A DNA stretch of 24,426 bases, from positions 1-24,426 of the IMG/VR virus record IMGVR_UViG_3300029473_000227; one strand, 5' to 3'. Origin of the DNA: a virus (lineage: Duplodnaviria; Heunggongvirae; Uroviricota; Caudoviricetes). This document shows positions 1-23,343 of this stretch, one piece after another (the stretch's first letter is position 1; every line of letters starts with the position of its first letter). The notes under the pieces were generated by a model, which was given only the letters and a program-made list of their open reading frames with translations, made no database searches and was not told the origin of the DNA. Position numbers and translations under genes: made by a program.

Positions 1-459
1 ATGAACAGAGTAACCGCGATTATCTCCGCTCTGGTTATCTGCATCATCGTTTGCCTGTCATTGGCTGTTAATCATTACCGTGATAACGCAATCGCCTACA
101 AAGAGCAGCGCGATAACAAGGCCAGTGAACTGGAGAAGGCGAACGCCACCATCGCTGACATGCGGAAGCGTCAACGTGATGTAGCAGAACTCGACGCAAG
201 ATACACAAAGGAGCTTGCTGATGCTAACGCGACTATCGAAAGTCTCCGTGCTGATGTTTCTGCTGGGCGTAAGCGCCTGCAAGTCGCCGCCACCTGTGCA
301 AAGTCAACGACCGGAGCCAGCGGCATGGGCGATGGAGAAAGCCCAAGACTTACAGCAGATGCTGAACTCAATTATTACCGTCTCCGAAGTGGAATCGACA
401 GGATAACCGCGCAGGTTGACTACCTGCAGGAATACATCAGGACGCAATGCCTTCGATGA
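1..459 (+). CDS. Rz: i-spanin Rz (P22 gene 15 equivalent)
   Basis: 152 aa; N-terminal membrane anchor [29 protein letters not shown] followed by a coiled-coil region; closely resembles lambda Rz as recalled; embedded +1-frame lipoprotein ORF. Confidence 0.9.
221..406 (+). CDS. Rz1: o-spanin Rz1, outer-membrane lipoprotein embedded in the +1 frame of Rz
   Basis: ATG at 221 preceded by AAAGGAG at 207-213; lipobox LLGVSAC; proline-rich ([12 protein letters not shown]); entirely inside Rz. The ORF track starts at a TTG at 215; the ATG at 221 is preferred. Confidence 0.8.
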
Positions 460-633
460 TAGCGATAATTTTACTCATCATCCTTCACATCTGGCTCTGT
501 AGACAGGGTGGTGATCACTTCTGGAGTAAATCCAGATTAAACATCTCATTGCTGATGCTTGATATTGAGCATCTGGCGCGCGGTAAGGGGCTGCGTTGAG
601 ATAAGAGCCAGTTCATTACAAATACCAGGATTT

Positions 634-658
634 AGCCTCGCATTCGCGGGGCTTTTTT
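634..658 (+). terminator. Rho-independent terminator downstream of the lysis genes
   Basis: 8-bp stem agcctcgc / gcggggct (one G-U pair), 4-nt loop attc, followed by a 6-T run. Confidence 0.6.
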
Positions 659-802
659 ATATCTGAATTTCACAGCGCATCTCACGCGCATATTAACGAG
701 AGCCTTTCAGTAAGCGAGCCTGAGAAATGCCGTTATAGGTGGCGACCTCTCTCGGGCGGCTTTTCTGTGAGACAGGCTCACTTTCTAAAAGGTAAAGACG
801 CT

Positions 803-1321
803 ATGAATCATCAATTGGCTAATCTCGATTTCCGGGACATGGTGGTTGTTTCTGGTGATCGCGTGATCACAACCTCCCGCAAGGTAGCAGCTTACTTCGA
901 CAAGCAGCATCACCACATCATTCAGAAAATCGAAAAGCTAGACTGTTCGGATGAATTTCTAACCAGCAACTTTTCGCGGGTTACCTATGAACACAAGGGT
1001 AATCAGTATGTTGAATATGAAATTTCCAAAGACGGCGCGATGTACATCATCATGTCGTTTACCGGCAAAAAAGCTGCCGCCATCAAAGAGGCGTTTATCA
1101 AAGCATTTAATTGGATGCGTGACAGGCTGATGGAGATGGCTCACTCATACCAAAGAGAGCACAACGAGTTAATGCTGGAGTTCATGAAGGAAAAGGATGT
1201 TGCCAGTATGTCAGGACGCTTGCTGAACCGCTGGGGCAGGATCAAAAAACCGCAACTCATAGCAAGAATCGAAAGGCTTGAGCAGCAGGCGCAAATATCG
1301 ATCCCCGGACTGCCAAAGTGA
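803..1321 (+). CDS. rha: Rha-family phage regulatory protein
   Basis: 172 aa from ATG 803 (the ORF track starts at GTG 767); Rha-type pattern (TTSRKVAAYF...NFSRVTYEHKGNQYVEYEISKDGAMYIIMSFTGKKAAAIKEAFIKAFN); lies between lysis and terminase genes as in P22. Confidence 0.75.
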   Translation: MNHQLANLDFRDMVVVSGDRVITTSRKVAAYFDKQHHHIIQKIEKLDCSDEFLTSNFSRVTYEHKGNQYVEYEISKDGAMYIIMSFTGKKAAAIKEAFIKAFNWMRDRLMEMAHSYQREHNELMLEFMKEKDVASMSGRLLNRWGRIKKPQLIARIERLEQQAQISIPGLPK

Positions 1322-1607
1322 CCATTCCAAAGCCCATCTACGGGTGGGCTTGATAATGAAACCAGAATTTATTCTGGGCAACCAGTTACGGCAGTACCAC
1401 GAAACAACCCAAGCCAGTAAGTGGGGAAATAACACTGGCAGCCACTGAAAGATGAACCTCCTGCCTTATGGCAAAAAAGATTCTTTGTGGTGGCAGACTG
1501 ATGGAAAGACATCGGATAGAATAAAACAGTGGCTAGGGTAGCTCCCGAAAAGCGGAATCGTCACCGCCAGCCACTGAATCTATGACGAACAACTAGACGA
1601 GGTTGAT

Positions 1608-1850
1608 ATGAGTGAAATTGATAAAATAATAAATGGTACATGTAACTTTCAATCAATGCCGCCAGGTAGTTATGTAAAACAATGTAGTGAAATAGTTAAT
1701 GGTCAGCTTGTAATGTCAAATGCAGGACGCGGAGTTTCTGCGGATGAAAAAAAATCAATAAATGAAGCCCTGTTAAGCATCAATGTTTTTGACTTGTTTC
1801 GCCCATCTTGGGTTATCTTGCAAAATAGTAACCAATTCCCACATTATTGA
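1608..1850 (+). CDS. hypothetical protein, AT-rich moron
   Basis: 80 aa; GAGG at 1599-1602 with 5-nt spacing to ATG; markedly AT-rich compared with flanks; followed by a weak terminator-like hairpin. No family recognised. Confidence 0.55.
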   Translation: MSEIDKIINGTCNFQSMPPGSYVKQCSEIVNGQLVMSNAGRGVSADEKKSINEALLSINVFDLFRPSWVILQNSNQFPHY

Positions 1851-1867
1851 TAATTAATTATTAAATT

Positions 1868-1890
1868 GGTCGCTAAGTCGGCCTTTTTTA
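1868..1890 (+). terminator. possible weak intrinsic terminator after the moron ORF
   Basis: 5-bp stem ggtcg / cggcc (one G-U), loop ctaagt, then TTTTTTA. Confidence 0.35.
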
Positions 1891-1996
1891 TTGCCATCAC
1901 AAAAGCCATTCCCTACAGAGTGGCTTTGATAATGGCTTATACCCTACACGGGATAACTTAACTGATATCCCTTTTAACGGATAAACGGAGCCAACA

Positions 1997-2239
1997 ATGG
2001 CAGAGATTATTCCCATGACTGAAGAACAGAAATTCCAGTTAGAGGTTTACAAACTGGTCATGAACCAGAACGCAGCCGCAGAAGAAGCATTTCAGTTCAT
2101 TGGTACTGACGAGCTGAAGCTTGAGCTATTCAAAATTCACTTCCAGTCAGGCGGCGCTAATTCAGATATCACGACCCGCACTATCGAAGCGGTGCGTAAA
2201 TCGAAGGAAGCGTTAGACCTGTTCACCGCTGGAGTGTGA
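1997..2239 (+). CDS. hypothetical acidic helical protein; stop lies 1 nt before the HExxH ORF start
   Basis: 80 aa; GGAG at 1987-1990, 6 nt before ATG; stop 2237-2239 and next ATG at 2241. Confidence 0.6.
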   Translation: MAEIIPMTEEQKFQLEVYKLVMNQNAAAEEAFQFIGTDELKLELFKIHFQSGGANSDITTRTIEAVRKSKEALDLFTAGV

Positions 2240-2240
2240 T

Positions 2241-2630
2241 ATGGCTAAGGCCAAATGGCACAAACTCCCGGCGTTCACCATTCCGCTGTTTCAAAGTGCA
2301 CACGTCTACCTCGCAACAACCAGAGAACAGTTTCAGCACGCTGATAAATTCCTTGGCGGCAGCGGGGATGAGAAGCCATTCAATCTTGGGCTTGCAAGCA
2401 ACTATGAAAACACTGATACGGGTGAGCGATGCTATCTGATTGGAGTATTCGATCAGCAGATCGCTACGCTCGTTCATGAGTGCGCCCACGTCTGCTTTTA
2501 CGTTTGCTCTGATGTCGGCGTGACGACAAGGCCTGAAGATGCCAACGAGACGTACTGTTACATGCTGGACAGGATGGTTAATCACTTCCTGCCATTCATT
2601 CAGGAGAAACAAGATGCATCACTGGAATAA
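2241..2630 (+). CDS. HExxH zinc-metallopeptidase-like protein, possibly ImmA/IrrE (COG2856) family
   Basis: 129 aa; GGAG 6 nt upstream; motif LVHECAHV followed 17 residues later by EDANETY, reminiscent of the HExxH...E-x-EAN signature. Family assignment is from motif memory only. Confidence 0.6.
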   Translation: MAKAKWHKLPAFTIPLFQSAHVYLATTREQFQHADKFLGGSGDEKPFNLGLASNYENTDTGERCYLIGVFDQQIATLVHECAHVCFYVCSDVGVTTRPEDANETYCYMLDRMVNHFLPFIQEKQDASLE

Positions 2631-2808
2631 TCAATCCCCTTATTGCCAATGCCAACGCTGCCCGTGCTGCGGGAAGATTGTTAACCAATTTACTGGCAAC
2701 AATTTCTTCAAGACTGGTTATGGATATGGTGTTGCGGGTAGCATTAATTGCTCTGGGGCTGCTGCTGAAACGACATCAAACACAGGCAAGCAGGAAGGAG
2801 CTAAGTAA
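2614..2808 (+). CDS. small cysteine-rich protein (CxCxxCxCC), putative zinc knuckle
   Basis: 64 aa; AGGAGA at 2602-2607, 6 nt before ATG; overlaps the HExxH ORF 3' end by 17 nt. The overlapping alternative frame (2678-2869) is an alternative reading. Confidence 0.4.
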   Translation: MHHWNNQSPYCQCQRCPCCGKIVNQFTGNNFFKTGYGYGVAGSINCSGAAAETTSNTGKQEGAK

Positions 2809-2897
2809 TGGTAATCAACGTTTGTTCAGGCTCTCAGGGCTTCGACAACCCATCCAAATTCCGCGATGAATGGGATAAGCAAGCAGAAGGGAAATAA
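2808..2897 (+). CDS. candidate 29-aa micro-ORF ([29 protein letters not shown]) upstream of terS
   Basis: AAGGAG at 2795-2800 with 7-nt spacing; ATG overlaps the previous stop (TAATG); ends 5 nt before the terS ATG. Too short for the ORF track. Confidence 0.25.
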
Positions 2898-2902
2898 TCA
2901 AT

Positions 2903-3391
2903 ATGGCAGCACCAAAGGGCAACCGATTTTGGGAGGCCCGCAGTAGTCATGGGCGAAATCCTAAATTCGAATCGCCTGAGGCGCTGTGGGCTGCTTGTTG
3001 TGAATACTTCGAGTGGGCTGATGATAACCCGTTATGGGAGGGTAAGGTATTTTCATATCAGGGAGAAATAATTAAGGCTAATGTCCCTAAGATGCGAGCC
3101 ATGACTATTTCAGGATTGTGTACCTTCCTTGATATCACCAGGCAAACATGGGGAACCTTCCGGTCAATGGAAGGTTTTTCTGACGTCACATCACGAGCGG
3201 AAGACATCATCTACGACCAGAAATTCTCTGGCGCAGCCGCTGACCTTCTCAACGCTAACATCATCGCCCGTGATTTGGGCCTCAAAGAGCAGTCGCAAGT
3301 TGAAGACGTGACACCTGATAAGGGAGATCGCGATAAGCGGCGCTCTCGTATCAAGGAGCTATTCAACCGTGGAACTGGACGCGATTCTTGA
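2903..3391 (+). CDS. terminase small subunit (P22 gp3-like)
   Basis: 162 aa, the same length as P22 gp3; N-terminus [38 protein letters not shown] and C-terminus [18 protein letters not shown] match recalled P22 gp3; central region diverged. Confidence 0.93.
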
Positions 3392-4868
3392 TAACCTGAG
3401 CGACGAAGAGCAAATCGAGTTGCTCGAGCTACTCGAAGAAGAAGAGAACTACCGGAACACACACCTGCTATATGAATTTACGCCATACAGCAAACAGCGT
3501 GAGTTCATCGACGCCGGGCATGACTATCCAGAGCGCTGTTTTATGGCTGGTAACCAGCTTGGTAAGTCATTTACTGGTGCTGCTGAAGTCGCGTTTCACC
3601 TTACCGGGCGTTATCCTGGCACAAAAGGCTATCCTGCTGATGGTAAATATGGCGGTGAGTGGAAAGGTAAGCGTTTCTATGAGCCTGTTGTCTTCTGGAT
3701 TGGCGGCGAGACAAACGAGACGGTAACCAAAACGACTCAACGCATCCTGTGCGGTCGTATTGAAGAGAATGATGAGCCGGGCTACGGTTCAATACCGAAA
3801 GAGGACATCATTAGCTGGAAGAAGTCTCCTTTCTTTCCGAACCTTGTTGATCATCTTCTGGTTAAGCATCACACGGCTGATGGCGTTGAAGATGGCATTT
3901 CAATCTGCTACTTCAAACCATACTCGCAAGGCCGCGCTCGCTGGCAGGGTGACACAATCCACGGCGTGTGGTTTGACGAAGAGCCACCATACAGCATTTA
4001 TGGCGAAGGTCTTACCCGTACCAACAAATACGGGCAATTCTCAATTCTGACGTTTACCCCGCTGATGGGGATGTCTGACGTTGTTACCAAGTTCCTGAAG
4101 AATCCCAGCAAGTCGCAGAAAGTGGTCAACATGACCATCTACGACGCTGAGCACTACACAGACGAACAGAAAGAGCAAATCATCGCATCTTATCCTGAGC
4201 ATGAGAGAGAGGCGCGTGCTCGCGGTATTCCTACGATGGGTAGTGGTCGAATCTTCCAGATACCGGAAGAGACAATTAAGTGTCAGCCGTTCGAGTGTCC
4301 TGATCACTTCTACGTAATTGGCGGGATGGATTTCGGATGGGATCACCCACAGGCGCAGGTTCAGCTTTGGTGGGATAAGGACGCAGACACAATCTACGTT
4401 TCACGCGTGTGGAAGGCGAAAGAAAAGACAGCCGTTCAGGCGTGGGGAGCTGTTAAATCATGGGCGCATAAAGTGCCAACAGCATGGCCTCATGACGGAA
4501 ACCAGCACGAGAAGGGCGGCGGTGAGCAGCTCAAAGGGCAGTATGCCGACGCTGGTTTTATGATGTTGCAGGAGCATGCGACATGGCCTGATGGCGGTAA
4601 TGCTGTGGAGCCTGGCATCACTGAATTGCGCGACATGATGCTCGATGGTCGCTTCAAAGTATTCAACACCTGTGAGCCATTCTTTGAGGAGTTCCGCCTC
4701 TATCACCGTGATGAAAACGGGAAGATCGTCAAGCTTAACGACGATGTTCTCTCAGCCGTTCGCTATGCATACATGATGCGCCGCTTCGCCAAAATGATGC
4801 GCGACATCAAAAAACCAAAAGAGAAAAAGATACCAGCCCCAATCAGGCCCATCGCACGGAGAACTTAA
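3369..4868 (+). CDS. terminase large subunit (P22 gp2-like)
   Basis: 499 aa from GTG 3369, overlapping the terS 3' end as in P22; N-terminus [37 protein letters not shown]; same length as P22 gp2. Confidence 0.93.
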
Positions 4869-7034
4869 ATGGCCGACGAAAACAGACTCAATTCCATTCT
4901 GTGTAAGTTTGACGCAGACTGGATGGCGAGCGATGAAGCCAGAACCGAGGCGACAAATGACCTGTATTTTAGCCGAGTGTCGCAATGGGATGACTGGCTA
5001 TCAAACTACACGACTCTGCAATATCGCGGACAATTCGATGTTGTTCGCCCGGTGGTCAGGAAACTGGTCGCAGAGATGCGCCGGAACCCTATCGACGTTC
5101 TCTTCCGACCCAAAGACGGTGCTAATCCTGATGCAGCCGATGTGTTGATGGGGATGTATCGTACTGATATGCGCCATAACACGGCAAAGATTGCCGTTAA
5201 CGTTGGCGTTCGTGAGCAGATAGAGTCCGGCGTTGGTGCATGGCGCCTGGTCACACAGTACGAAGACAACGACCCAACAAGCAACAATCAGGTAATCCGA
5301 CGCCTGCCAATCCATGAAGCCTGCTCACACGTCATATGGGACGCCAACAGCAAGCAGATGGATAAGAGCGACGCTAAGCACTGCACGGTGATTAACGCTT
5401 TGTCACGCAATGGTTGGAAAGAGTTCGCAGAGGATTACGGTATTGATCCTGACACCTTGCCATCTTTCCAGAATCCGAACGATACATGGCTGTTTCCGTG
5501 GGTATCGAATGATGTCGTCTACGTCGCTGAGTATTACGAGGTCGAAGAGAAGAAAGAGAAAGTCTTCATCTACCGCGACCCGCTGACAGGTGAGCCGGTC
5601 AGCTATTACCAGCAGGATATCAAAGACGTCATCGACGACCTGGCTAATCGTGGATTCATTAAGGTAGCAGAGCGCAAGGTGAAGCGTCGGCGTGTGTATA
5701 AGTCGATCATCACCTGTACGCAGATACTGAAAGACCGCGAGAAGATAGCAGGAGAGCATATTCCAATCGTTCCAGTGTATGGTGAATGGTCATTCGCTGG
5801 TGACAAGGAGTGCTACGAAGGAGTAGTAAGGCTGACGAAAGACGGGCAGCGACTTCGCAACATGATTATGTCGTTCAACGCCGACATCGTGGCGCGGAAC
5901 CCTCAGAAGAAACCTTTCTTCTATCCAGAGCAGATTGCCGGTTATGAGCACATGTACGGTGGCGATGACGCCTATCCGTACTATCTCATCAATCGCACTG
6001 ATGAAAACGGAGCTGATCTACCGCCAACGCCAGTTGCGTACATGGAGGAGCCTCAGGTTCCGCAGGCCAACGCCTACATGCTTGAGGCCGCCACCGCTGC
6101 AGTGAAGGAAGTCGCTAGCCTTGGCGTTGATGCTGAGGCTGCAAACGGGCAGGTGGCTTTCGATACCGTCAATCAACTGAACATGCGGGCAGACCTTGAG
6201 ACATACGTGTTTCAGGATAACCTGGCTACCGCAATGCGGCGTGATGGCGAGATTTATGCCTCAATGGTCAATGATATTTATGACGTTCCTCGTCATGTAA
6301 CGCTGACACTTGAAGATGGAAGCGAGAAAGACGTTCAACTCTACGCGCAAGTTGTCGATTACCAGTCCGGCAATGTGGTCACACTCAACGACATTCGTGG
6401 TCGCTATGAGTGCTATACGGACGTTGGGCCATCCTTCCAGAGCATGAAGGAACAGAACCGCGCAGAGATTCAGGAGTTACTAACCAAGGTTCCGCAAGGT
6501 ACTCCAGAGTTCCAGATGCTGATGCTGCAATACTTCACGCTGCTTGACGGTAAAGGCGTCGAGATGATGCGAGAGTACGCGAACAAGCAACTGGTGATGA
6601 TGGGGCTGAAGAAACCAGAAACACCTGAAGAGATGGAGATGGTACAGCAGGCTCAACAGCAGCCGCAGCAGCCATCAGCAGAGCAAATTCAGGCGCAGGG
6701 TATCCTTCTGCAAGGTCAGGCTGAATTGCTCAAGGCAGAGAACCAACAGGCGCAGATTCAGGTTGAAGCCGCCAAGGTTGAAGCCCAAAACCAACTCAAC
6801 GCCGCGAAGATTGCGGAAATCTTCAACAATATGGACCTCGACAAGCAGGCAGAACTGCGTGAGTACCTCAAGCTCGTAGGTCAATTCCAGCAACAGCGCA
6901 GCAAAGATGCTCGTGCTAACGCTGAGCTGCTTCTTAAAGATGCAGACCAGACTCATTCACAACGCATGGATTTCGCGAATCTTATGCGTCAAGTTCAAAT
7001 CCCCTCCGGCGGAGTAGCCGAGACACCTCAATAA
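4869..7034 (+). CDS. portal protein (P22 gp1-like)
   Basis: 721 aa; ATG immediately after the terL stop; glutamine- and alanine-rich C-terminal helical barrel region ([18 protein letters not shown]...) as in the P22 portal. Confidence 0.93.
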
Positions 7035-13535: not shown

Positions 13536-14900
13536 ATGGCTACGTGGCAACAGGGTATTAATTCTGGTGGTTTTCTGGCTGGCATCGGTACGCAAAATGA
13601 GAATGCGCCAAAGGCAAGCGACATTAACGCAACGCTTGGTATGATCCGCGAAAACAATGAACTGGCTCGCTCAGGTGCAAATAACGTTGGCCTGACCGCG
13701 TTACGTGGTCTGGCTGGAGTTGCTGATATTTACAATCAGGAACAGCAACAGAAAGCTATTAGTGCGTTCAATAAGGTTCACGCTGATGCATGGGCTTCTG
13801 GTGATCCATCGGGACTATTTAAGTTTGCCCAGGAAAATCCAGCGTTTGTTGCACAGGCACAACAGGCGTTTTCCGGTCTTAATGATCAGCAACGCAACGA
13901 TATGGGCGATTTAGCCATGAGGGCTAACGTCGCTCTTTCTCAGGGACCGGAAGCCTACAGTAAATTCATTACTGACAACAAGGACAGGTTAAATCGCGTT
14001 GGTGCTAATGCTGACTGGATGATTCAGACAGGTATCCAGAATCCAGAGCAGCTATCACACATGCTGACTACTATGTCTCTCGGTGCGCTTGGACCAGAAA
14101 AGGCGTTTGCTGTTCAGGATAAGATGGTTGGTCGTGAGATTGACCGAGGCCAGCTGGCAGAGACAATCCGCAGCAATAAGGCTGGAGAGGCGCTAACAGC
14201 ACGTGGTCAGAATATCACGATGCGCGGTCAGGATTTATCGATGCAGAGAGCATCAATGAAAGGGTCGGTTGGGAATAATGAGCGTACAGTTCAGTTAGCA
14301 GATGGCAGAACTGTAACGGTAGGCGGGAAGCTTCACGGCGCTGGGGCTAATGCGTTCTACGAAGGTATCGACAACGAGGGGAATATGGTTCGCGTTCCTG
14401 CTGGCTCTATTGCCGCTCCGGCTACATCGGCAGCAAGCGCGCAGAATTACGCAATGAAGAAAGATCTTGATGCAATTTCTGGTGCATCAATTGACGATCT
14501 TGGCTTCATGACTGGCATTACAGGCTCTTCAGGTTCTCCTGCTCTTGGTGCAGATATTCGTAGCCGTGCATCTGGTGGTGATCAGAGGAAACTATACAAC
14601 GCTGCACAGCGAATCCAAGGAAAGATGCAGAATCAGGGCATTGCAGCAGCCAGAGACATGGGGGCATCCGGTATCAACACCGTTGCAGAAGCAAAGATGT
14701 ATTTTCAAGGTATGCCACAGGTTGATTTCTCAAGCCCTGAAGCACTGCAACAATCAATGCGCGACATTCAGCAATATACCGACAATTACAACCAACAATA
14801 TAACGTTAATGTTGGTAAATCTCAGCGGCAGCAATCTCAACCTACACAGGTATCACAGCCAGCAGCCAGCAGTAACTTTTCTTCACTATGGGGTGATTAA
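13536..14900 (+). CDS. ejection protein gp20-like
   Basis: 454 aa; position and size consistent with P22 gp20 (about 470 aa). Confidence 0.8.
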
Positions 14901-16765
14901 TGGCTAAAGCATGGAAAGATGTTATCGCCTCTCCACAGTATCAGGCGTTAACTGAAGAACAGAAAGCACAGGCTCAAGCGCAATATTTTGATGAGGTTGT
15001 TGCCCCTAAGGCTGGTGACAAATGGGCTGAAGCAAGAGATCAGTTTTATGCAGCATACCCTCCGCCTCAGCAGCAGAAAGAAGAACCATCATTGATGCAA
15101 CAAGCTGGCGATTGGCTCACTGGTGGTCAAAGTGCAGGGCAAATTGCAGAGCAGGCTGGTCGTGGTCTGGTAAACATACCATTTGACGTATTGCAGGGTG
15201 GCGCAAGTCTGATTAATGCAATCAGCCAGGGGCTTGGTGGCCCCAAGGTTTTGGACGATGTCTATCGTCCAGTAGATCGACCAACAGACCCTTATGCGCA
15301 AGCTGGAGAAACAATTGGCGGGTATTTAGTTCCAGGAGTTGGAACGGCAGGAAGCATGGCTATTGGATCACTGGCAGAGGCCGCAAATCAGAAAGGCGAT
15401 TTCGCACAAAATGCAGCTAAAAATGCCGGAGTTAACCTTGCCGCTCAGGGGGTTCTTTCCGCAGCAGCAAAGGGAATAGGGCGTGGAATTACTGCTGTTC
15501 GTGGCGAAATATCACCAGCAGATCAGCAATTTCTCAAGCGTGCCGCTGCGGCAGATGTACCAGTTATGACATCGGATGTAGTTCCTCCAAAAACAAAACT
15601 TGGCAATCAACTGCAGGGTTACTCAGAAGGAGTCATAGCTGGGACTGGACCAATGAGAGCCGCACAGCAGGATGCTAGAACCAAGCTTGTTAATCGCTTC
15701 ACCGAAAAATACGGCGACTACGATCCATCTGTAGTCGTTGATAGTCTAAAGTCAGGCGTTGCAAGGGAAAAATCGTTAGCCAAGTCAAAACTAAACAACC
15801 TGTCAGGAAGAATGGTTGGAAAGCCAGTTGATACAAGTGGCGCCATAAGAGCTATCGACGGAGCAGTAAACGAACTTGGGAAACTTAAAGGTGTTTCTGA
15901 CACCCAGACCATTTCTGCGCTTAATGATTATAAGAATGCCATTCAGGAGATAACAAATGGAGATGATGCCTTTGAGTTACTTGATAAGCTGAGAACTCAG
16001 TTCCGCATTGACGTAAAAGGCGATCGTACAGTTCTGCCATCAATGTCGCAAACAATGGTCGACAGGGTCTACAACTCGCTAACCAATAGCCTTAGTAAAT
16101 CTATAGCGAAAGGACTTAGCCCAAAAGATGCTTCAGCATGGAGAGCGGGAAAAGCTGATTATGCAAAAATGGCAACACATGCAACTCAAACGCGCCTTAA
16201 AAACGTTCTAAATAAAGGAGATTTAACTCCCGAGGTTGTAAATACCATTGTGTATGGACAATATGGGTCAGATATAGCTCGATTGTACGGGAAACTCGAT
16301 CAAAAAGGTAAAGACATGCTAAGGGCGGCATATATCAGCAAAATAGCTGACAAGGTAGGTGACAGCCCTCAGAAAATGATGACCGAGCTTGGCAAGCTGC
16401 AAAAACAAGCAAATGGTCAGGTGTTTAAAACTGTATTTGGTGGGAAGAACGGAAAAGAGATAGAGGGGATGTTATCTATTCTCGATGCTACCAAAAGAGC
16501 ATCTGAGGCTAATGTTGTGACGAAGACTGGCATGACACTCGCGCCTTTGGTAAGGGTTATTGGTAACCTAAAAACCGGAGGCGCGCTATTGGCTGGGGAA
16601 ACAGGGATTGGCCTTATGTCGAGGGTTTATGAAAGCCCTATGTCCAGGAATGCGCTCTTACGTCTGGCAAACACCAAAGCAGGAACGCCAGACTATGAAA
16701 GAGCATTAAGTAACGCTGCAAATGCCATCAGACCGCTGCTTGCCACTGAGGCAACACAGCAGTGA
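14900..16765 (+). CDS. ejection protein gp16-like
   Basis: 621 aa; TAATG coupling with gp20; last gene of the morphogenetic operon before the accessory cassette. Confidence 0.8.
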   Translation: MAKAWKDVIASPQYQALTEEQKAQAQAQYFDEVVAPKAGDKWAEARDQFYAAYPPPQQQKEEPSLMQQAGDWLTGGQSAGQIAEQAGRGLVNIPFDVLQGGASLINAISQGLGGPKVLDDVYRPVDRPTDPYAQAGETIGGYLVPGVGTAGSMAIGSLAEAANQKGDFAQNAAKNAGVNLAAQGVLSAAAKGIGRGITAVRGEISPADQQFLKRAAAADVPVMTSDVVPPKTKLGNQLQGYSEGVIAGTGPMRAAQQDARTKLVNRFTEKYGDYDPSVVVDSLKSGVAREKSLAKSKLNNLSGRMVGKPVDTSGAIRAIDGAVNELGKLKGVSDTQTISALNDYKNAIQEITNGDDAFELLDKLRTQFRIDVKGDRTVLPSMSQTMVDRVYNSLTNSLSKSIAKGLSPKDASAWRAGKADYAKMATHATQTRLKNVLNKGDLTPEVVNTIVYGQYGSDIARLYGKLDQKGKDMLRAAYISKIADKVGDSPQKMMTELGKLQKQANGQVFKTVFGGKNGKEIEGMLSILDATKRASEANVVTKTGMTLAPLVRVIGNLKTGGALLAGETGIGLMSRVYESPMSRNALLRLANTKAGTPDYERALSNAANAIRPLLATEATQQ

Positions 16766-16782
16766 CTAAATGCCATGGATGG

Positions 16783-16971
16783 TTATTTCCCTAGCACATG
16801 AAACAATGTTTGCTTTAATTCCACCCATACAATTATGACCACTATAGACAGACAAAAGAAACTGAATGCATTGGCATCACGATCGAAACCTTCTCCGGCA
16901 CTAAATCCGTAAAAGGTCATAAAAAATATAAAAATTGCGCACTTTGCAACGTTTACAAATTTTTTCTTCAC
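16783..16971 (-). CDS. small hydrophobic membrane protein (two predicted TM segments), moron
   Basis: 62 aa from GTG at 16971; strong AAGGAGG 5 nt upstream on the minus strand (plus-strand cctcctt at 16977-16983); AT-rich. Confidence 0.5.
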   Translation of the reverse strand: MKKKFVNVAKCAIFIFFMTFYGFSAGEGFDRDANAFSFFCLSIVVIIVWVELKQTLFHVLGK

Positions 16972-17089
16972 ACCAACCTCCTTAGTTTTGAGCAGGATAC
17001 CATGAAAAAAGTAAACATCTTTTGCCTACTTCACATTTGAATGTTTTGTCATTAGGATGTTTCCGGTTTTTTTAAATATGGAAATTGAT

Positions 17090-18029: not shown

Positions 18030-18097
18030 AGTTGAAGCCCCAACTGCGGGAACAGTCAGGGCTTCGGTTGTCAGTAAATCCGTGGAGAAAAACCAAC
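18030..18097 (-). ncRNA. sar: putative sar antisense RNA (complementary to the arc-ant intercistronic region and ant RBS)
   Basis: By analogy with P22 sar (about 68 nt). Minus-strand -10-like TATACT (plus 18104-18109) at the ant start; hairpin gaagccc...gggcttc in the intergenic region. Ends not determined. Confidence 0.35.
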
Positions 18098-19000
18098 ATG
18101 AATAGTATAGCAATTTTAGAAGCAGTGAACACCTCTTACGTACCATTCAACGGTCAGCAAATTATCACCGCCATGGCTGCCGGAGTTGCATACGTTGCGA
18201 TGAAGCCAATCGTTGAAAACCTTGGAATGAGTTGGGGTACTCAGCAACAAAAACTTATGAAACAACTAGATAAGTTCAACTGTATTCATATGAATATGGT
18301 TGCCGCTGATGGGAAGCTTCGTAAGCTACTCTGCCTTCCTTTGAAGAAGTTAAATGGATGGCTGTTCAGCATCAACCCTGAGAAAGTTCGAGCTGACATC
18401 CGCGATAAACTGATTCAGTACCAGGAGGAATGCTTTAGCGTGCTGCATGACTACTGGACAAAGGGAAAGGCAGAAAATGCACGTAAGAAAACATCTGTTG
18501 ATGACAGGACTCCGCTTCGTGATGCTGTAAATATGCTGGTCAGCAAAAAGCATCTAATGTACCCAGAAGCTTATGCAATGATTCATCAGCGTTTCAATGT
18601 GGAAAGTATTGAAGAGCTTGATGCATCTCAGATACCGCAAGCCGTAGAGTACATCCACAGGGTAGTGCTTGAAGGTGAGTTCATTGGCAAACAAGAGAAG
18701 AAAACCAACGAGCTTTCTGCAAAAGAAGCAAACAGCCTTGTATGGTTATGGGATTATGCCAACCGCTCACAGGCATTATTCCGCGAACTGTATCCGGCGC
18801 TGAAACAAATTCAATCGAACTATTCCGGCAGATGCTACGACTACGGTCATGAATTCTCGTATGTTATCGGAATGGCGAGAGACGTTTTAATCAATCACAC
18901 ACGAGATGTTGATATCAATGAGCCAGACGGACCAGCGAATCTTTCCGCATGGATGAGACTTAAGAATAAAGAATTACCTCCTTCAGTACATAACTACTGA
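18098..19000 (+). CDS. ant: antirepressor Ant
   Basis: 300 aa from ATG 18098 (GGAG 18084-18087); N-terminus [21 protein letters not shown]; follows mnt-arc as in P22. Confidence 0.9.
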
Positions 19001-19100: not shown

Positions 19101-19163
19101 ATGACAGACATTACCTACTCAACAGATGGTCAGCAACCATGTTTGCTGCCTTATAAGCTATAG
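19101..19163 (+). pseudogene. stranded ancestral tailspike 5' end (RBS + ATG ACA GAC ATT ACC = MTDIT) truncated by the HNH cassette
   Basis: GGAG at 19089-19092 then ATG 19101; the first five codons equal the P22 tailspike N-terminus MTDIT; frame terminates after 20 codons; the HNH stop codon (19111-19113) overlaps it. Confidence 0.55.
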
Positions 19164-19611
19164 CCGCTTCATCAATGGTGTTGAATCTCCCAAGGGTTAT
19201 GTTTTTACCTGAGACATTTATCTGAGCTTGCCATTGATTTCTGGCTTGACAGAAAGTTACCCCCTTGATTCCAGCATTGCTATTTCGAGGTCCGACATTT
19301 AATGCATTTACGACTCTGCTAACATCCCTAAGGTTTGAGATTGCGTTATTTCTTCTGTTTCTATCAATGTGGTCAATCTCTTGTTTGGGCCATTCGCCAT
19401 ATACATACAGCCAGGCAAGTCTATGTGCAAAATATCTTACGCCATCAATATTAATCGCGTTATATCCATAAGAAATTGTGCCAGCAACTTTCCCAACAGC
19501 ACCTCTGGCGCTTAATTTCTTTTTCCAAGTGAAAATTCCTGTTTCTTTATTGTAATCGAGAACCTCCATAAGGCGATCCCGAGTTACTACCTCGTGACGT
19601 CTCTTACTCAT
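19111..19611 (-). CDS. HNH homing endonuclease with C-terminal AP2 DNA-binding domain
   Basis: 166 aa from ATG 19611 (GGAG 8 nt upstream; the ORF track starts at TTG 19653); HNH motif [27 protein letters not shown]2-like [44 protein letters not shown]. Confidence 0.85.
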
Positions 19612-19651
19612 TATTTTCTCCGGAATGTTTATTATGCCAGAACAATTATAC
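19114..19651 (-). mobile_element. homing-endonuclease cassette inserted into the tailspike 5' coding region (approximate limits)
   Basis: Contains the HNH ORF, its RBS and a perfect minus-strand TATAAT (plus 19645-19650); flanked on the left by the ancestral tailspike start and on the right by the resumption of conserved tailspike codons (NVVVS at 19652). Confidence 0.6.
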
Positions 19652-21835
19652 AACGTTGTTGTTTCACAACCAAGTCAGTTATTTACTTTAGCTCGCTCGT
19701 TTAAAGCAAATGCTAATGGTAAAATTTATATCGGTAAAATTGACACGGACCCTGTAAACCCTGAAAACCAGATTCAGGTTTATGTGGAGAACGAAGATGG
19801 CTCTCACGTTCCTGTTTCGCAACCAATAATCATTAACGCCGCTGGTTATCCTGTATATAACGGACAGATTGCCAAATTCGTTACCGTGCAAGGCCATTCT
19901 ATGGCTGTGTACGATGCATATGGGGCGCAGCAATTCTATTTTCCTAATGTGCTGAAGTATGACCCTGATCAACTTGAACAGCGATTATCACTGCCTACAG
20001 CACCTGAGATTATAGGGGTATATCCATCAGGTAAATTAGCAGATGTATTAAATGATGTAACCCCGGAGCAATTCGGAGCTATCGGTGATGGGGTTGCTGA
20101 CGATACGCAGGCATTAAAGGCTATGTTTAAATACATCAATGACATGCCGATTTCATTCACAGACACAGCAACAGAACTTAACCCCCACCTGGATGTGGCA
20201 GCAAAACGTGTTGTTTTGCGCGGCCTGTACATGCACACAGAGACAATCTTTATTCCTTCTGGGGTGCAGATTTTCCAGCCTGGATACTCTTATTTCCGCC
20301 GAAACGTGCAGCAAGGTTTTTATTTCAACCCTCCTTCTGGGGAAGAAAACATGGCTGCTGTTGGTACTTATGTTTATTTGAAGTCCGGTAATACCTGGTA
20401 TCTTAATTCTGACCCAATGTTACTTCCACAGGGCGCACAGATAGATAATGGCACTATCCGCACAGGAGCTAGACACATTGATATTGAGAATCTTAGTATC
20501 ATTACCAAGCCTGGAACCTTGCTTGGTTTACGCTGGTTAGGTGCAGCAGGATGCACAACTCGCAATCTAAGTATTGGTGAGAACACACCAAACAGCACAG
20601 CATCAACCGCCAGAATTCCTAAGGTTGGTATGCTTCACAGTATTGCTTGGGGCAGTGTTCACACAACACCTAAGATTCTATACAAAACTCAAGGTGCTGT
20701 TTTCTACGAGCAAAACGGTGGTTCTGAGGTGAAAAACGCTTACATTGCTCGTCTTGGGCAGGATTCAACTTATTCAGAACAGGTAATTTATAAACCGGAA
20801 GATTTTGACGAAACCGGCGATGTCGCAATTACACAGTACGGGCGCAGTTCTGTGCAGTTCAGGTATTGTGTAACAGAAACATGCTCATTCATGTATGTTA
20901 ACCAGGGTGATGCAAGAAGTAACGGCGGACTTAAGGTTGACGGTTGTCACATGGAAGCCACGGATGGTAAGGCGAAACATTGTTTCTATATTATCAACTC
21001 AGACGCTGATATTCGATTAAACGGTCTGTTTATCCAGGATAGCTCCATTCCTTCCAGTAGCGTGATTTTTGTTAAAAATTGCCAGAAGGGAAGAAGTGTA
21101 ATTGATGTTCACGGATACATGATGTTCAACGGTTACCGATTGCTGGACGGGGAAAACTCTGGAGAAGTCGTAAACTTACGTAACCCAAACGGCGGTCAAT
21201 ACCAATACGGAAAGCTCGGCAAATGGTCGCTGGTTAATGAAGTTACCGGCGTTTCTCCTCAGACTTTGTACATTGATCCGGTTAACGGAGATGACGAAAA
21301 CTGGGGTTTCCACAGCGGAAAAACGCTAAAAACGTTAACTTATGCCGCCAAAATCTGCCGCATGTTTGGTGTAACCGATATCTATACTAACGCAGGTAGT
21401 ATTACATTAACTGCGGATACGGACCTGCCTTCTGCCACGATTCGTGGCGCTGGTGGGATCGTGTGTAACGCAAACGGGAGCTTAGTTGCCTCACGTAAAA
21501 CCAATGTGAACCTGACTCTAGCTGATGGGGTAACAAGCCCTGCTGGTTACCATCTCATAAAGATAAACACTACGGAGCCCGTCGTCGTAGTATCTACCTG
21601 CGATATGACCACAACAACTGCCGCGAACATATTTCTTTTCCAGTCGAACGGTAATGTTGAATGGACGCATAGGGCCGGTGGTGGTCTGGCGTGTTATCGT
21701 TATGCAGGCACTCAGTCAGCAACATATTCGGCAGTGATTGGTTTGAATATCAGGTCTACAACCAGACCAGCTATAGATTCGACACCTGTATCTGGTAATG
21801 TTGTTACTAAATACTCTTCTATTTTGAAATCTTAA
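19625..21835 (+). CDS. tailspike protein: conserved P22/HK620-type head-binding domain plus divergent beta-helix receptor-binding domain
   Basis: 736 aa; residues about 10-116 ([11 protein letters not shown]...NVLKYDPDQ) match the P22/HK620 tailspike N-terminal domain from memory; the rest is unlike P22. Start may be ATG 19634, which restores P22 spacing before NVVVS; neither ATG has a good SD. Confidence 0.88.
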
Positions 21836-22024: not shown

Positions 22025-23182
22025 TCACTCCACCTTCTCATCAAGCCAGTCCGCCCACCACTGCATCATTTCTCTGCGCTTATCGAGATACTGAGCATGG
22101 TTGTAAATTCCGCGCACAGATCCGCCGTTGGCATGTGCCAGTTGCACTTCAATAGCGTCAGCAGGCCATTCGTGCTCGTTCATAACCGTGCTGAATTCAT
22201 GCCTGAATCCGTGACCGCTTTCCAGACCCTCATAGCCGATTTGTTTGATCACAAGCAATACCGCATTCTCGCAGATTGGCTTCTTCTTATCGTTGCGCCC
22301 GGCAAAAACAAACTCTGATACTGGTTTAGTGATGGAGCTTAGCGTAGTGAGAAGTTCAACCACCTGGTCTGACATAGGAACCACATGAATTTTGCGTCCC
22401 TTCATCACACTGGCGTCGATGGTGATAATCCTGTTTTCAAAATCGACGTTCTTCCATTGCATGGAACGAAGCTCTTTCGTTCTTAGGGCTGTGTAGCGCA
22501 AAACTTTAGTCGCAATGAGCGATACGATACTTCCTGAAAATGTTGCCAGTGCTTTATTGAATGCCGGGATCTGGTCTGCAGGAAGAAACGGGAAGTTTTT
22601 CTTGCGGTATCCCTTCATGGCGTCAGCAAGGTCAGGTGCCGGGTTATATTTAGCCCTACCAGTGACAATAGCGTAACGGAAAACCTCGCCGCATCTTCTG
22701 CGGGCTTTATTTGCTCGCTCCATTGCACCGCGATCTTCAAATCTGCGGATTACTTCCAGCAGTTGCATCGGCTCAATCTCCTGAATTTCAAGGCCGCCGA
22801 TGATAGGTAAAATGTCGTCATCAAACATTTTTGCAAGTTCAGTCGCATACCCTACTGACCATACTTGCTTCTTGTGCTCGTACCATTCCTTGTAAATCGC
22901 ACTAAAGGAATTGTTGTTAGACGAAGCCTTTTTCGCCTTTACCGGATCGATGCCAACCGAGATGTCTTTCCTCGCAGTCCATGCCTTATCCCTTGCCTCC
23001 TGCAAAGTCATTAGCGGATATTTTCCTACGGTCAGGATTTTCTCCTTACCGTCAATCTTGTAGCGAAGCTGCCATACCTTTTTCCCGGATACAGGGACAT
23101 AAAGGTACAGGCCATTACCATCGAGAAGGCGGTATGGTTTTTCTTTCGGCTTTGCTGCTTCAATCTGCTTAACGGTGAGCAT
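22025..23182 (-). CDS. intS: tyrosine integrase (P4-type, IntS-like)
   Basis: 385 aa from ATG 23182 (MLTVKQIEAAKPKEKPYRLLDGNGLYLYV...); C-terminal catalytic region with ...HGFRHEF...LAHANGGSVRGIYNHAQY; adjacent to tRNA-Arg. The ORF-track GTG start at 23218 is considered less likely. Confidence 0.9.
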   Translation of the reverse strand: MLTVKQIEAAKPKEKPYRLLDGNGLYLYVPVSGKKVWQLRYKIDGKEKILTVGKYPLMTLQEARDKAWTARKDISVGIDPVKAKKASSNNNSFSAIYKEWYEHKKQVWSVGYATELAKMFDDDILPIIGGLEIQEIEPMQLLEVIRRFEDRGAMERANKARRRCGEVFRYAIVTGRAKYNPAPDLADAMKGYRKKNFPFLPADQIPAFNKALATFSGSIVSLIATKVLRYTALRTKELRSMQWKNVDFENRIITIDASVMKGRKIHVVPMSDQVVELLTTLSSITKPVSEFVFAGRNDKKKPICENAVLLVIKQIGYEGLESGHGFRHEFSTVMNEHEWPADAIEVQLAHANGGSVRGIYNHAQYLDKRREMMQWWADWLDEKVE

Positions 23183-23343
23183 GGGTAAAAATCCGGTGGG
23201 TAAAATTATTTTATCCACTTTTTACCCGTCACGGAGTGCGGCTGTCAACGATCTGAAGCGAACCATGACGAACTGTGAATCTACGGAAGGCTTGATATTC
23301 AGGGGATTTTGCGGACTAGTACGGATGGGAGAGAACTGATAAA

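What the first reader, a model, noticed from the sequence alone, without database searches (positions are those of the whole stretch)
1599..1890. Self-contained AT-rich moron (RBS, 80-aa ORF, terminator) between rha and the late-operon accessory cluster
This segment is conspicuously AT-rich against roughly 50% GC flanks. It has a GAGG RBS, an ORF with no recognisable motif, and a hairpin plus T-tract downstream. That is the architecture of a horizontally acquired moron expressed from the prophage; such loci often carry defence or anti-defence genes.
Basis: seen in the sequence. Interest (0 to 1): 0.45.

Follow-up and report, generated by a model that had tools for sequence, protein, structure and literature searches.

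The report
Orphan phage gene behind int-alpA leader
The AT-rich segment is a real, horizontally swapped accessory gene of a P22-like E. coli prophage, encoding an 80-residue protein with no known relatives; its "ribosome-binding site" is the 3' end of a conserved structured RNA leader (Rfam int-alpA) that sits directly in front of many unrelated phage genes and whose hairpin loop co-varies with two boxes next to the ribosome-binding site.

Summary
ORF 1608-1850 (80 aa), GAGG 1599-1602, hairpin plus T-run 1868-1889, and GC 0.34 against 0.48 (lowest 0.2% of windows) are all present. The ORF is a real gene (dN/dS 0.17-0.22). It is an orphan: 6 clusters among 5.8 billion proteins, with no Pfam, PHROG, NCBIfam, PADLOC, PDB or fold match.

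The swapped unit is larger than reported: 1514-1895. The gene is mobile: about 15 of 5,426 E. coli genomes carry it, no deposited phage does, and relatives sit either in this slot or between Q and holin. The leader and terminator also flank other cargo (DUF551).

Across more than 100 viral contigs the leader ends 1-8 nt before the start codon of unrelated genes. Its P3 loop is complementary to two downstream boxes, the second at the Shine-Dalgarno sequence (83% of leaders, against 8.5% in cross-controls).

Most likely this is a moron cassette whose translation is gated by the leader. The protein's function is unknown, and nothing supports a defence or anti-defence role. As a moron it is ordinary; the leader's architecture is the interesting part.

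The parts
1514..1895 (+). Whole exchangeable cassette: -10-like box, int-alpA leader, ORF80, terminator
   Evidence: Homology to Sf6 and Huey stops at 1513 and resumes at 1896. It is continuous in the E. coli prophages L001 and L002, which carry the cassette.
1517..1522 (+). -10-like hexamer TAGAAT, about 5 nt upstream of P1; possible cassette promoter (no good -35)
   Evidence: Read from the sequence. In 37 of 99 family members a -10-like hexamer (at least 5/6) starts at -18..-13 relative to the GGC of P1, and an AT-rich block lies at -16..-8. L005 has TGATATAAT here.
1526..1588 (+). int-alpA RNA (Rfam RF02996). Three-way junction: P1 1527-1534/1569-1576, P2 1536-1538/1544-1546, P3 1552-1555/1564-1567, P3 loop (L3) 1556-1563 AAUCGUCA
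   Evidence: cmscan gives 42.0 bits against a gathering score of 35.8, E 2.4e-7 to 1e-5. The MFE fold gives the same helices, z -2.6. P1 and P3 show compensatory changes in the Q-slot copies and in other phages.
1583..1588 (+). Box 'seg1' UGACGA, complementary to the P3 loop (UCGUCA, 1558-1563)
   Evidence: The loop and box change together in other phages, e.g. IME307 CCUCA/UGAGG. Alignment-free test.
1590..1605 (+). Helix P4 (CAACU 1590-1594 / GGUUG 1601-1605). Its loop holds box 'seg2' GACGA (1596-1600), the second complement of the P3 loop, and the Shine-Dalgarno GAGG (1599-1602)
   Evidence: Fold. Compensatory variants by eye: Vibrio UACAC/GUGUA, Shewanella UUAAC/GUUAA, GF-2 AACGAC/GUUGUU. 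A stem of at least 5 bp occurs in 58% of leaders against 32% of cross-controls. seg2 starts 14 nt (IQR 13-15) after seg1 and carries an SD-like tetramer in 65 of 74.
1608..1850 (+). ORF80: orphan 80-aa protein gene, AT-rich (GC 0.346, GC3 0.247)
   Evidence: dN/dS 0.17-0.22 at dS 0.64-0.88 against the homologues in L005-L007, with all other frames closed. Six clusters among 5.8e9 proteins. AF2 model has pLDDT 65 and three helices.
1868..1889 (+). Intrinsic-terminator-like hairpin (GGUCG/CGGCC, loop CUAAGU) plus T6
   Evidence: Conserved after ORF80 in both slots, after DUF551 in L007 and after a 57-aa ORF in L008. In the family, 27% of cargo ORFs are followed by such a site, against 2% of control windows.

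Best explanation
Window 1514-1895 is a modular accessory-gene ('moron') cassette. It is inserted in the late operon of an integrated P22/Sf6-like E. coli prophage, between rha and the DUF2560/terminase genes. It has four parts: a weak -10-like box; a roughly 80-nt structured leader of the Rfam int-alpA family (three-way junction P1-P2-P3, then box seg1, then helix P4 carrying box seg2 and the Shine-Dalgarno sequence); an AT-rich orphan gene for an 80-residue, probably all-helical cytoplasmic protein; and a weak intrinsic terminator. Shown: the cassette is exchangeable. The same leader and terminator frame other cargo, and the same cargo sits in two different late-operon slots. Shown: the ORF is under purifying selection. 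Shown: across phages the loop of hairpin P3 co-varies with both downstream boxes, and the second box abuts the SD. Inferred mechanism: the leader gates translation of whatever gene follows it. When the P3 loop pairs with seg2 in the loop of P4 (a kissing interaction), the SD is blocked. When it pairs with the decoy box seg1 (a pseudoknot), the SD is free. What sets this balance is unknown; candidates are co-transcriptional folding, where the transcript starts, a host factor, or a ligand bound at the invariant junction. During lytic growth the cassette is read from the Q-antiterminated late transcript, and in the lysogen at most weakly from its own -10 box. The protein's activity is unknown. 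My guess, at low confidence, is that it works by binding a host or phage protein, as many small moron products do.
For: Cassette and mobility: boundaries 1513/1514 and 1895/1896 against Sf6 and Huey. Present in about 15 of 5,426 E. coli genomes and no deposited phage. In L007 the identical leader (to 1605) and terminator (from 1868) frame a DUF551 gene. Homologues at 73-75% identity lie in the Q-holin slot (L006-L010) and the Rz-DUF2560 slot (L005). Real gene: dN/dS 0.17-0.22, other frames closed. Leader identity: Rfam int-alpA at 42 bits against a cut-off of 35.8; diverse relatives score 40-54 bits. Leader placement: 75-89% nucleotide identity over about 79 nt in unrelated phages of Vibrio, Pseudomonas, Shewanella, Edwardsiella, Klebsiella, Pantoea and Enterobacter. 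Annotated ORFs of different families start 1-8 nt after the match, and similarity stops at the ATG. The start codon lies 73-89 nt from the GGCUAGG core in more than 100 viral contigs. Loop-box covariation: both complementary sites are present in 83% of 95 leaders (63 distinct loops), against 8.5% of 7,974 cross pairs. Spacing is fixed, and seg2 includes an SD-like motif in 65 of 74. Cargo is diverse: 36 clusters among 80 ORFs, including DUF1376 replication initiators, HNH/GIY-YIG endonucleases, DUF551, KilA-N and many orphans.
Against: There is no expression data of any kind. The promoter is only a -10-like hexamer that the consensus scan did not report. Support for P4 is moderate (58% against 32%). 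In L005 the leader has uncompensated changes and gave no Rfam hit at E <= 0.1, yet the ORF is intact, so the gene can apparently persist with a degraded leader. The covariation does not distinguish cis from trans action. About 30% of family members have a U-run after P1, which suggests a separate short RNA in those cases. The structure model of the protein has low confidence (pLDDT 65), so even 'helical binder' is weak.
Confidence: 0.6

Rival explanations
1. The int-alpA element acts mainly in trans, as a small stable antisense RNA in the manner of the P1/P7 C4 and P4 CI RNAs. It would be cut out of, or terminated from, the transcript after P1. Its P3 loop would then pair with the seg2/SD box of mRNAs carrying the same code, repressing the downstream gene as dose-dependent negative feedback or immunity. 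seg1 would be a second target or decoy.
For: The architecture is similar: a closing stem plus two hairpins, with a loop complementary to a box at the RBS of the co-transcribed downstream gene and to a second copy of that box. The C4/CI description is from my own knowledge; C4's control of icd/ant is cited in PMC8201110. About 30% of members have a U-run right after P1, like an sRNA terminator. Rfam classes the family as an sRNA. In L007 two leaders in one phage share the same loop code, so they could cross-regulate ORF80 and DUF551. Cargo includes replication initiators and KilA-N/antirepressor-like genes, typical targets of such RNAs.
Against: The window's copy has no U-run or obvious processing signal after P1. 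Both target boxes lie within 35 nt in cis at fixed spacing, which favours intramolecular pairing. The Rfam C4 model does not match the window at E <= 1.
Confidence: 0.22
2. The leader is a ligand- or factor-sensing switch (riboswitch-like). The invariant three-way junction (GGCUAGG.U.GCU.CCGAAA...CUGCC) would bind a universal small molecule, ion or host protein, and that binding would decide whether the P3 loop pairs with seg1 or with seg2/SD.
For: The junction and P2 are almost invariant in sequence, while the P1 and P3 stems and the loop code vary freely. The core with the full architecture occurs in genomes of Proteobacteria, Acidobacteria, Planctomycetota and Clostridia, which points to a universal partner. 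Mutually exclusive pairings adjacent to an SD are the usual layout of a translational expression platform.
Against: The cargo genes have no metabolic theme (replication initiators, homing endonucleases, orphan ORFs). No known riboswitch family matched. No ligand can be inferred.
Confidence: 0.12
3. The leader and terminator are only conserved 'boundary sequences' (recombination linkers between mosaic modules) or an independent sRNA gene that happens to lie upstream. ORF80 would then be an ordinary moron translated from a plain SD.
For: Mosaic joints coincide with the leader/CDS and CDS/terminator borders. Sf6's annotation lists such boundary sequences nearby. L005 keeps the ORF with a degraded leader.
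Against: Boundary sequences would not need RNA-level compensatory changes in P1 and P3, a fixed distance to the start codon, or three-way covariation of loop, seg1 and seg2. The element is conserved in phages that share no other sequence with this one.
Confidence: 0.06
4. One reading: ORF80 is a defence or anti-defence (or superinfection-exclusion) protein.
For: Only context. It is a small, AT-rich, sporadically distributed gene in a slot where one phage record (Huey) labels the alternative occupant an 'anti-CRISPR protein'. Small orphan moron products often have such roles (general knowledge).
Against: No PADLOC, Pfam, PHROG, NCBIfam, PDB or BFVD match, and no linked defence genes. The label in Huey is an automatic annotation of an unrelated protein.
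Confidence: 0.15

Closest known systems
Rfam RF02996, int-alpA RNA motif (from the bioinformatic survey of Weinberg et al. 2017, PMC5737381; classed as an sRNA gene, no function assigned as far as I know)
   Same: The window's 1526-1588 scores above the family's gathering threshold. It has the P1/P2/P3 junction with the conserved CUAG and CGAAAAG strands. The last model positions (..AgGG) correspond to box seg1.
   Different: It is not next to int or alpA: the integrase is 20 kb away. The conserved element continues about 20 nt beyond the Rfam model, through P4, seg2 and the SD, to the start codon of a cargo gene. I could not check whether the original supplement proposed the loop-tail pairing, because the supplements are not held here.
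Phage morons (extra genes with their own promoter and terminator between conserved genes of lambdoid phages; the concept is from Hendrix and colleagues, cited from my own knowledge)
   Same: Present in some relatives and absent or replaced in others. Deviant base composition. Terminator downstream. Located in the late operon, in slots known to carry accessory genes.
   Different: The promoter is doubtful. The cassette also carries a conserved structured leader shared with unrelated cargo, which is not part of the classical description of a moron.
C4 antisense RNA of phages P1/P7 and CI RNA of satellite P4 (Rfam RF01695; Citron & Schuster 1990, as cited in PMC8201110)
   Same: A short RNA with a closing stem and two hairpins, encoded just upstream of and co-transcribed with its target. 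Loop bases are complementary to a box at the target's RBS and to a second copy of that box. The code varies between phages.
   Different: No sequence or CM similarity (no C4 hit at E <= 1). Both boxes are downstream and within 35 nt. Processing by RNase P is untested. The cargo is not restricted to antirepressor or replication genes.
RBS-sequestering hairpins of T4-type homing-endonuclease and late genes (I-TevI, segB, mobE; Edgell et al. 2010, PMC2988022)
   Same: An RNA structure next to or over the SD of selfish or accessory genes embedded in long polycistronic transcripts. HNH/GIY-YIG endonucleases are frequent cargo of the int-alpA leader.
   Different: The T4 elements are simple gene-specific hairpins, relieved when transcription starts from a late promoter inside the hairpin. 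Here a conserved multi-helix module with a variable loop code is shared across very distant phages.

Membership tests
Rfam int-alpA RNA (RF02996) | Covariance-model score at or above the curated gathering score (35.8 bits) | tested here: met
   42.0 bits at 1526-1588 (+), full-length model match 1-71. L001 scores 40.9 and L002 scores 42.0.
Rfam int-alpA RNA (RF02996) | Three-way junction: closing stem P1 enclosing two hairpins, with conserved CUAG and CGAAAAG joining strands | tested here: met
   cmscan alignment. An independent MFE fold gives the same helices. Compensatory changes are seen in P1 and P3.
Rfam int-alpA RNA (RF02996) | Genomic neighbourhood of integrase and alpA genes (the source of the name; from my own knowledge of the family description) | tested here: not met
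   It lies between rha and DUF2560 in the late operon. The integrase is at 22025-23218 and no alpA is in the window. This is a contextual feature, not a structural one.
Moron (accessory gene cassette of lambdoid phages) | Gene present in some closely related phages and absent or replaced in others, between conserved genes | tested here: met
Moron (accessory gene cassette of lambdoid phages) | Base composition different from the surrounding genome | tested here: met
   GC 0.339 against 0.479, lowest 0.2% of windows; GC3 0.247.
Moron (accessory gene cassette of lambdoid phages) | Own promoter upstream | tested here: inconclusive
   Only TAGAAT at 1517-1522, with a poor -35. The scan did not report it. 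-10-like boxes at this offset are enriched in the family (37 of 99).
Moron (accessory gene cassette of lambdoid phages) | Own terminator downstream | tested here: met
   Hairpin plus T6 at 1868-1889, conserved behind three different cargo genes. Its function was not tested, and the stem is weak.
Moron (accessory gene cassette of lambdoid phages) | Expression from the repressed prophage | not testable with these tools
   Needs transcript mapping in a lysogen.
C4 / CI antisense RNA (Rfam RF01695) | Match to the family covariance model | tested here: not met
   No C4 hit in window 1-3500 or 1400-2000 at E <= 1, or in the whole window at gathering score.
C4 / CI antisense RNA (Rfam RF01695) | Loop sequence complementary to the RBS region of the downstream co-transcribed gene and to a second copy of the box | tested here: met
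   L3 UCGUCA against seg1 UGACGA (1583-1588) and seg2 GACGA (1596-1600, overlapping SD 1599-1602). Family-wide, 83% against 8.5% in controls.
C4 / CI antisense RNA (Rfam RF01695) | Excision from the precursor by RNase P, and action in trans | not testable with these tools
   Requires cleavage assays, Northern blots and trans-complementation.
Known defence / anti-defence proteins | Profile match to a described defence or anti-defence family, or linkage to such genes | tested here: not met
   PADLOC gives 0 hits for ORF80, P0002 and P0003. No Pfam, PHROG or NCBIfam hit. The neighbours are lysis, rha and packaging genes.

The most novel reading that the evidence does not exclude
int-alpA is not a free-standing sRNA of integrase/alpA islands. 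It would instead be a widespread, portable translational-control leader of (pro)phage genes. It has a tRNA-like three-way junction with an invariant core, and its 'anticodon-like' P3 loop carries a freely variable 5-8 nt code. That code is matched by two boxes in its own mRNA: a decoy, and one at the Shine-Dalgarno sequence inside a hairpin loop. This would make it a programmable cis (and possibly trans) switch that phages place in front of selfish or dosage-sensitive genes (homing endonucleases, replication initiators, morons such as ORF80) in hosts from Proteobacteria to Planctomycetota and Clostridia.
Probability: 0.5. Interest if true: 0.7.

Novelty: new member of a known kind. Interest (0 to 1): 0.5.

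Why it matters
As a moron, the locus adds one more orphan accessory gene to P22-like prophages, which is of modest interest. The wider value is that it links an orphan Rfam motif to a concrete, testable role. The int-alpA RNA abuts the start codons of dozens of unrelated phage genes, and its hairpin loop co-varies with two boxes flanking the ribosome-binding site. If this is a regulatory switch, it would be a modular, programmable expression controller that moves with, or waits for, cargo genes across very distant phages. That would help in understanding how newly acquired or toxic genes are kept in check. It would also improve annotation, since the element is unannotated in all 47 E. coli genomes that carry it, and it could serve as a compact synthetic-biology part.

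Tried and rejected
1. Distant homology for ORF80. The word-indexed search found only 6 close clusters. The exhaustive HMMER profile search added six large proteins, which I rejected as artefacts. P0007 is a translated tandem repeat in which the word SYLRSCSEI recurs 19 times. The others are Cys-rich repeat, dockerin or CARDB proteins whose E-values are inflated by summing repeats.

2. Structure route. The AF2 model has pLDDT 65 and pTM 0.46. The BFVD fold search gave nothing below E = 1.9. The PDB profile search gave no hits at E <= 10. I ran no further search on a low-confidence model.

3. 'The RNA travels with the ORF.' I first thought the int-alpA RNA and ORF80 formed one inseparable module. 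I rejected this when L007 showed the same leader in front of DUF551 and the Q-slot copies gave no Rfam hit. I then partly revived it, because the Q-slot copies carry a diverged leader with compensatory changes.

4. Column-based covariation of the 3' half. MAFFT scrambles the variable loop and box regions and shifts the P3 register between subfamilies. I therefore used alignment-free self-versus-cross tests and did not use the count of structure pairs or a custom CM.

5. Taxonomic breadth from the raw genome scan. With 15 fixed bases, about 1,000 chance matches are expected in 596 Gb, so raw hits were not accepted. Only 65 of 117 have P3 plus the P1 partner, and 35 pass the strict full-architecture filter.

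6. Other RNA identities for the leader. No ribozyme or riboswitch family matched in Rfam. A by-eye comparison with the hammerhead core does not fit.

7. The promoter-like site TTGATA-16-AATAAT at 1603-1630 overlaps the start codon, lies in AT-rich sequence, and the region's site count is below the shuffle expectation. I treated it as chance.

8. Literature. The 2017 discovery paper's main text does not discuss int-alpA, and its supplements are not held. The only other paper that mentions the motif merely lists it as present in two STEC genomes.
Full report
CONTEXT. The window is the right-hand part of an integrated P22/Sf6-like prophage of E. coli. In order it holds:
- Rz spanin (1-459) and a small Sf6-gp65-like ORF (447-599);
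- rha (803-1321; Phage_pRha + ORF11CD3);
- the finding;
- a DUF2560/hkbM gene (1997-2239) and a phrog_1365 gene (2241-2630);
- small terminase gp3 (2903-3391) and TerL (3369-4868);
- further on, the immI region with sar RNA (18030-18097, minus strand) and the P22 antirepressor (18032-19000);
- a tailspike with the P22 head-binding domain (19625-21835) and an integrase (22025-23218, minus strand);
- tRNA-Arg(CCU) (23344-23418, minus strand) and a host formate/nitrite-transporter gene.
The flanks of the finding match about 200 deposited P22-like phages and about 2,600 E. coli genome records at 90-99% identity.

1. ORF 1608-1850 (80 aa) is preceded by GAGG (1599-1602, 5 nt from the ATG). It is followed by a hairpin (1868-1872/1879-1883) and T6 (1884-1889). 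GC of 1599-1890 is 0.339, against a window mean of 0.479 (sd 0.041). Only 0.2% of 292-nt windows are as low, and the window minimum lies here. GC3 of the ORF is 0.247, against 0.49-0.58 in neighbouring genes. The hairpin is weak on energy alone (-6.5 kcal/mol, z -1.0). Its reality rests on conservation: the same hairpin and T-run follow ORF80 homologues in two slots, a DUF551 gene in L007 and a 57-aa ORF in L008.

2. THE ORF IS A REAL BUT ORPHAN GENE. Against homologues at 73-75% amino-acid identity, dN/dS is 0.17-0.22 at dS 0.64-0.88, and all five other frames are closed in every copy. The family is tiny: 6 clusters among 5.8 billion proteins. There is no tblastn hit in 50,697 phage records, and no Pfam, PHROG, NCBIfam or PADLOC family. 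There is no PDB relative even at E <= 10. The exhaustive HMMER search returned only repeat-driven artefacts. AlphaFold gives a low-confidence three-helix model (pLDDT 65) with no significant viral fold match. The protein has no hydrophobic segment, two conserved cysteines (C12, C26) and a near-neutral charge (read from the sequence).

3. THE EXCHANGEABLE UNIT IS 1514-1895, AND IT IS MOSAIC. Homology to Sf6 and Huey stops at 1513 and resumes at 1896. Those phages carry a gp49_66-family gene in the slot. About 15 of 5,426 complete E. coli genomes have the ORF80 cassette, annotated only as 'hypothetical protein'. Homologues occur in the same slot (L005). They also occur in a different late-operon slot, between the Q antiterminator and the holin (L006-L010), with homology spanning window 1546-1894. 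In L007 the Rz-DUF2560 slot carries a DUF551 gene instead. There the match to the window runs up to 1605 and restarts at 1868, so only the coding sequence is exchanged while the upstream leader and the terminator are kept.

4. Rfam's int-alpA model (RF02996) matches 1526-1588 (+) at 42 bits (gathering score 35.8), end to end. The fold is a three-way junction:
- P1 1527-1534/1569-1576;
- P2 1536-1538/1544-1546;
- P3 1552-1555/1564-1567, with the 8-nt loop AAUCGUCA.
The Q-slot copies did not reach Rfam's threshold. They keep the single-stranded motifs, however, and they have compensatory changes in P1 (CAGUGGC/GCCACUG to CAUGGC/GCCAUG) and in P3 (GCGG/CCGC to GAGUU/AACUC). They fold into the same shape. 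In L005 the leader carries uncompensated changes.

5. THE LEADER IS A PORTABLE ELEMENT THAT ABUTS START CODONS. The 94 nt upstream of ORF80 match, over about 79 nt at 75-89% identity, phages that share nothing else with this one. These are Enterobacter Tyrion, Edwardsiella GF-2, Pantoea PA-1, Klebsiella prophages, Pseudomonas IME307, several Vibrio phages and Shewanella X14. In each, an ORF of a different family starts 1-8 nt after the match: 56 aa, 58 aa and 205 aa hypotheticals, and an HNH endonuclease. The genomic positions are unrelated, for example inside head or tail modules. In the alignment, similarity runs up to the ATG and stops there.

Of 113 usable hits, 101 had P3 and the P1 partner strand, and there were 108 distinct leaders. 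The start codon lies 73-89 nt from the core. Members tested with Rfam all pass the int-alpA threshold at 40-54 bits.

Cargo is heterogeneous: 36 BLAST clusters among 80 ORFs of 27-364 aa. By Pfam and PHROG it includes:
- DUF1376 'primosomal'/O-like replication initiators (15-20);
- HNH/NUMOD/GIY-YIG endonucleases (about 12-15);
- DUF551, KilA-N, HTH_36 and lambda P;
- many orphans like ORF80.

In bacterial genomes the raw pattern is expected about 1,000 times by chance. After filtering for the full architecture, members remain in Alpha-, Beta-, Gamma- and Deltaproteobacteria, Acidobacteria, Planctomycetota and Clostridia. In E. coli the window-type leader is in 47 of 5,426 genomes and is never annotated.

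6. THREE-WAY COVARIATION POINTS TO A MECHANISM. In each leader the P3 loop is Watson-Crick complementary to two downstream boxes.
- seg1 lies about 7-10 nt after P1. In the window it is UGACGA, 1583-1588.
- seg2 starts 14 nt (IQR 13-15) after seg1. In the window it is GACGA, 1596-1600, overlapping the SD at 1599-1602.
The three segments change together between phages: CGUCA/UGACG/GACGAGG here; CCUCA/UGAGG/AGAGG in IME307; UCGUUAC/GUAACGA/AACGUGAGG in L021; CCUCCA/UGGAG/UGGAGG in L025; CCCUAA/UUAGGG/UUAGGAG in L033.

Without any alignment, both sites (at least 5 nt and at least 4 nt) are present in 83% of 95 leaders (63 distinct loops). The figure is 8.5% for 7,974 pairings of a loop with the downstream region of a leader that has an unrelated loop. 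seg2 carries an SD-like tetramer in 65 of 74 cases, and the AUG follows about 7 nt later.

A further helix, P4 (window 1590-1594/1601-1605), brackets seg2 and the SD. It shows compensatory variants by eye and moderate statistical enrichment: a stem of at least 5 bp in 58% against 32%. The Rfam model ends at seg1, so seg2, P4 and the start codon lie outside the curated family.

Shown: the complementarity, its covariation and the fixed geometry. Inferred: that the loop alternates between seg1 (pseudoknot, SD free) and seg2 (kissing contact, SD blocked) and thereby sets translation of the cargo.

The data do not decide between purely cis action, a C4/CI-like trans antisense RNA, and a ligand- or factor-controlled switch.
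- The trans reading is favoured by U-runs after P1 in about 30% of members, though not in this one.
- It is also favoured by two leaders with the same code in one phage (L007).
- The switch reading is favoured by the near-invariant junction across phyla.

7. PROMOTER AND TERMINATOR. A -10-like TAGAAT (1517-1522) sits just upstream of P1, inside the cassette, and there is no good -35. Such boxes are enriched at this offset in the family (37 of 99), and L005 has an extended -10, TGATATAAT. Terminator-like sites follow 27% of cargo ORFs, against 2% of control windows. The 'promoter-leader-gene-terminator' layout is therefore recurrent but not universal. Expression in the lysogen remains untested. 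In lytic growth the cassette lies in the Q-antiterminated late transcript; this follows from its position between the lysis and packaging genes and from established lambdoid biology.

8. COMPARISON WITH KNOWN SYSTEMS. The RNA is a member of Rfam int-alpA by score and structure, but not by the int/alpA neighbourhood that named the family. The cassette fits the moron concept, except that its promoter is unproven and it carries a shared structured leader. Functionally the nearest analogues are two. One is the C4 (P1/P7) and CI (P4) antisense RNAs, which share the logic but have no model match. The other is the RBS-sequestering hairpins of T4 homing-endonuclease genes (PMC2988022). No support was found for a defence or anti-defence role of ORF80.

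9. VERDICT. The finding is real and its general interpretation (a horizontally acquired moron) is right. As such it is ordinary, with an orphan protein of unknown function. Three corrections apply: the unit starts at 1514, the 'RBS' is part of a conserved int-alpA leader, and the leader and terminator are generic framing elements reused for other cargo. The leader's architecture is the more interesting result, and it makes an orphan RNA family directly testable.

Noticed in passing
window 1583-1633: The last 25 nt of the leader and the first 26 nt of ORF80 (codons 1-9) are invariant at the nucleotide level in all seven aligned copies. This includes copies that are otherwise only about 79% identical and that sit in a different slot. 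It could be a recombination tract, or a constraint on the translation-initiation region that extends into the ORF.
   Followed up: partly
window 1322-1513: About 190 nt of apparently non-coding sequence between rha and the cassette is conserved at 90-96% in Sf6, Huey, HK620-type phages and many E. coli prophages. It has no Rfam hit and no convincing ORF (only a 56-aa TTG ORF at 1278-1448). Its function is unknown.
   Followed up: no
window 19111-19653 (- strand): A second low-GC island holds an HNH_3 + AP2 homing-endonuclease-like gene (180 aa), on the opposite strand between the antirepressor gene and the tailspike. As listed, the ORF overlaps the tailspike start, though its real ATG may be at about 19611. 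It has no int-alpA leader by Rfam.
   Followed up: partly
window 18030-18097 (- strand) and 18032-19000 (+): A P22-type immI region: sar antisense RNA (Rfam 95.6 bits) opposite the 5' end of a P22 antirepressor gene (P22_AR_N/C).
   Followed up: partly
window 16692-17000 and 21599-21822: Two further stretches with GC <= 0.40. The first lies after the 621-aa ORF (14900-16765, no Pfam hit). The second is the 3' end of the tailspike gene, which is probably a swapped receptor-binding module.
   Followed up: no
window 22025-24426: The prophage end: integrase (minus strand), tRNA-Arg(CCU) at 23344-23418 (the probable attachment site), then a host formate/nitrite-transporter gene. This confirms that the window is an integrated prophage and not a free phage genome.
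   Followed up: partly
L006-L010, about 5760-5821 (L008 1207-1267): Sub-threshold Hammerhead_3 matches (about 30 bits against a gathering score of 48.5, E 0.016-0.027) lie between the Q antiterminator gene and the ORF80 homologue. CUGAUGA, GAAAC and GUC are present, but positions 10.1/11.1 are mismatched. This may be chance.
   Followed up: no
L005 2807-2885: An isrJ sRNA match above the gathering score (44.2 against 37 bits) lies immediately downstream of the Q antiterminator gene of a P22-like contig.
   Followed up: no
L046, L085, L112, L117, L122 (e.g. L046 2067 and 2653): Two int-alpA leader-cargo units lie in tandem, about 500-600 nt apart, on the same contig. Their P3-loop codes are different or only partly overlapping (AUGCCUUG against ACCUUGA or ACCUCCAA). 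In L007, by contrast, the two leaders share the same code.
   Followed up: partly
L003 (phage Huey) 992-1492 and 1727-2107: The deposited annotation calls the gp49_66-family occupant of this slot, and a second nearby ORF, 'anti-CRISPR protein'. This looks like an automatic label, and I did not verify it.
   Followed up: no
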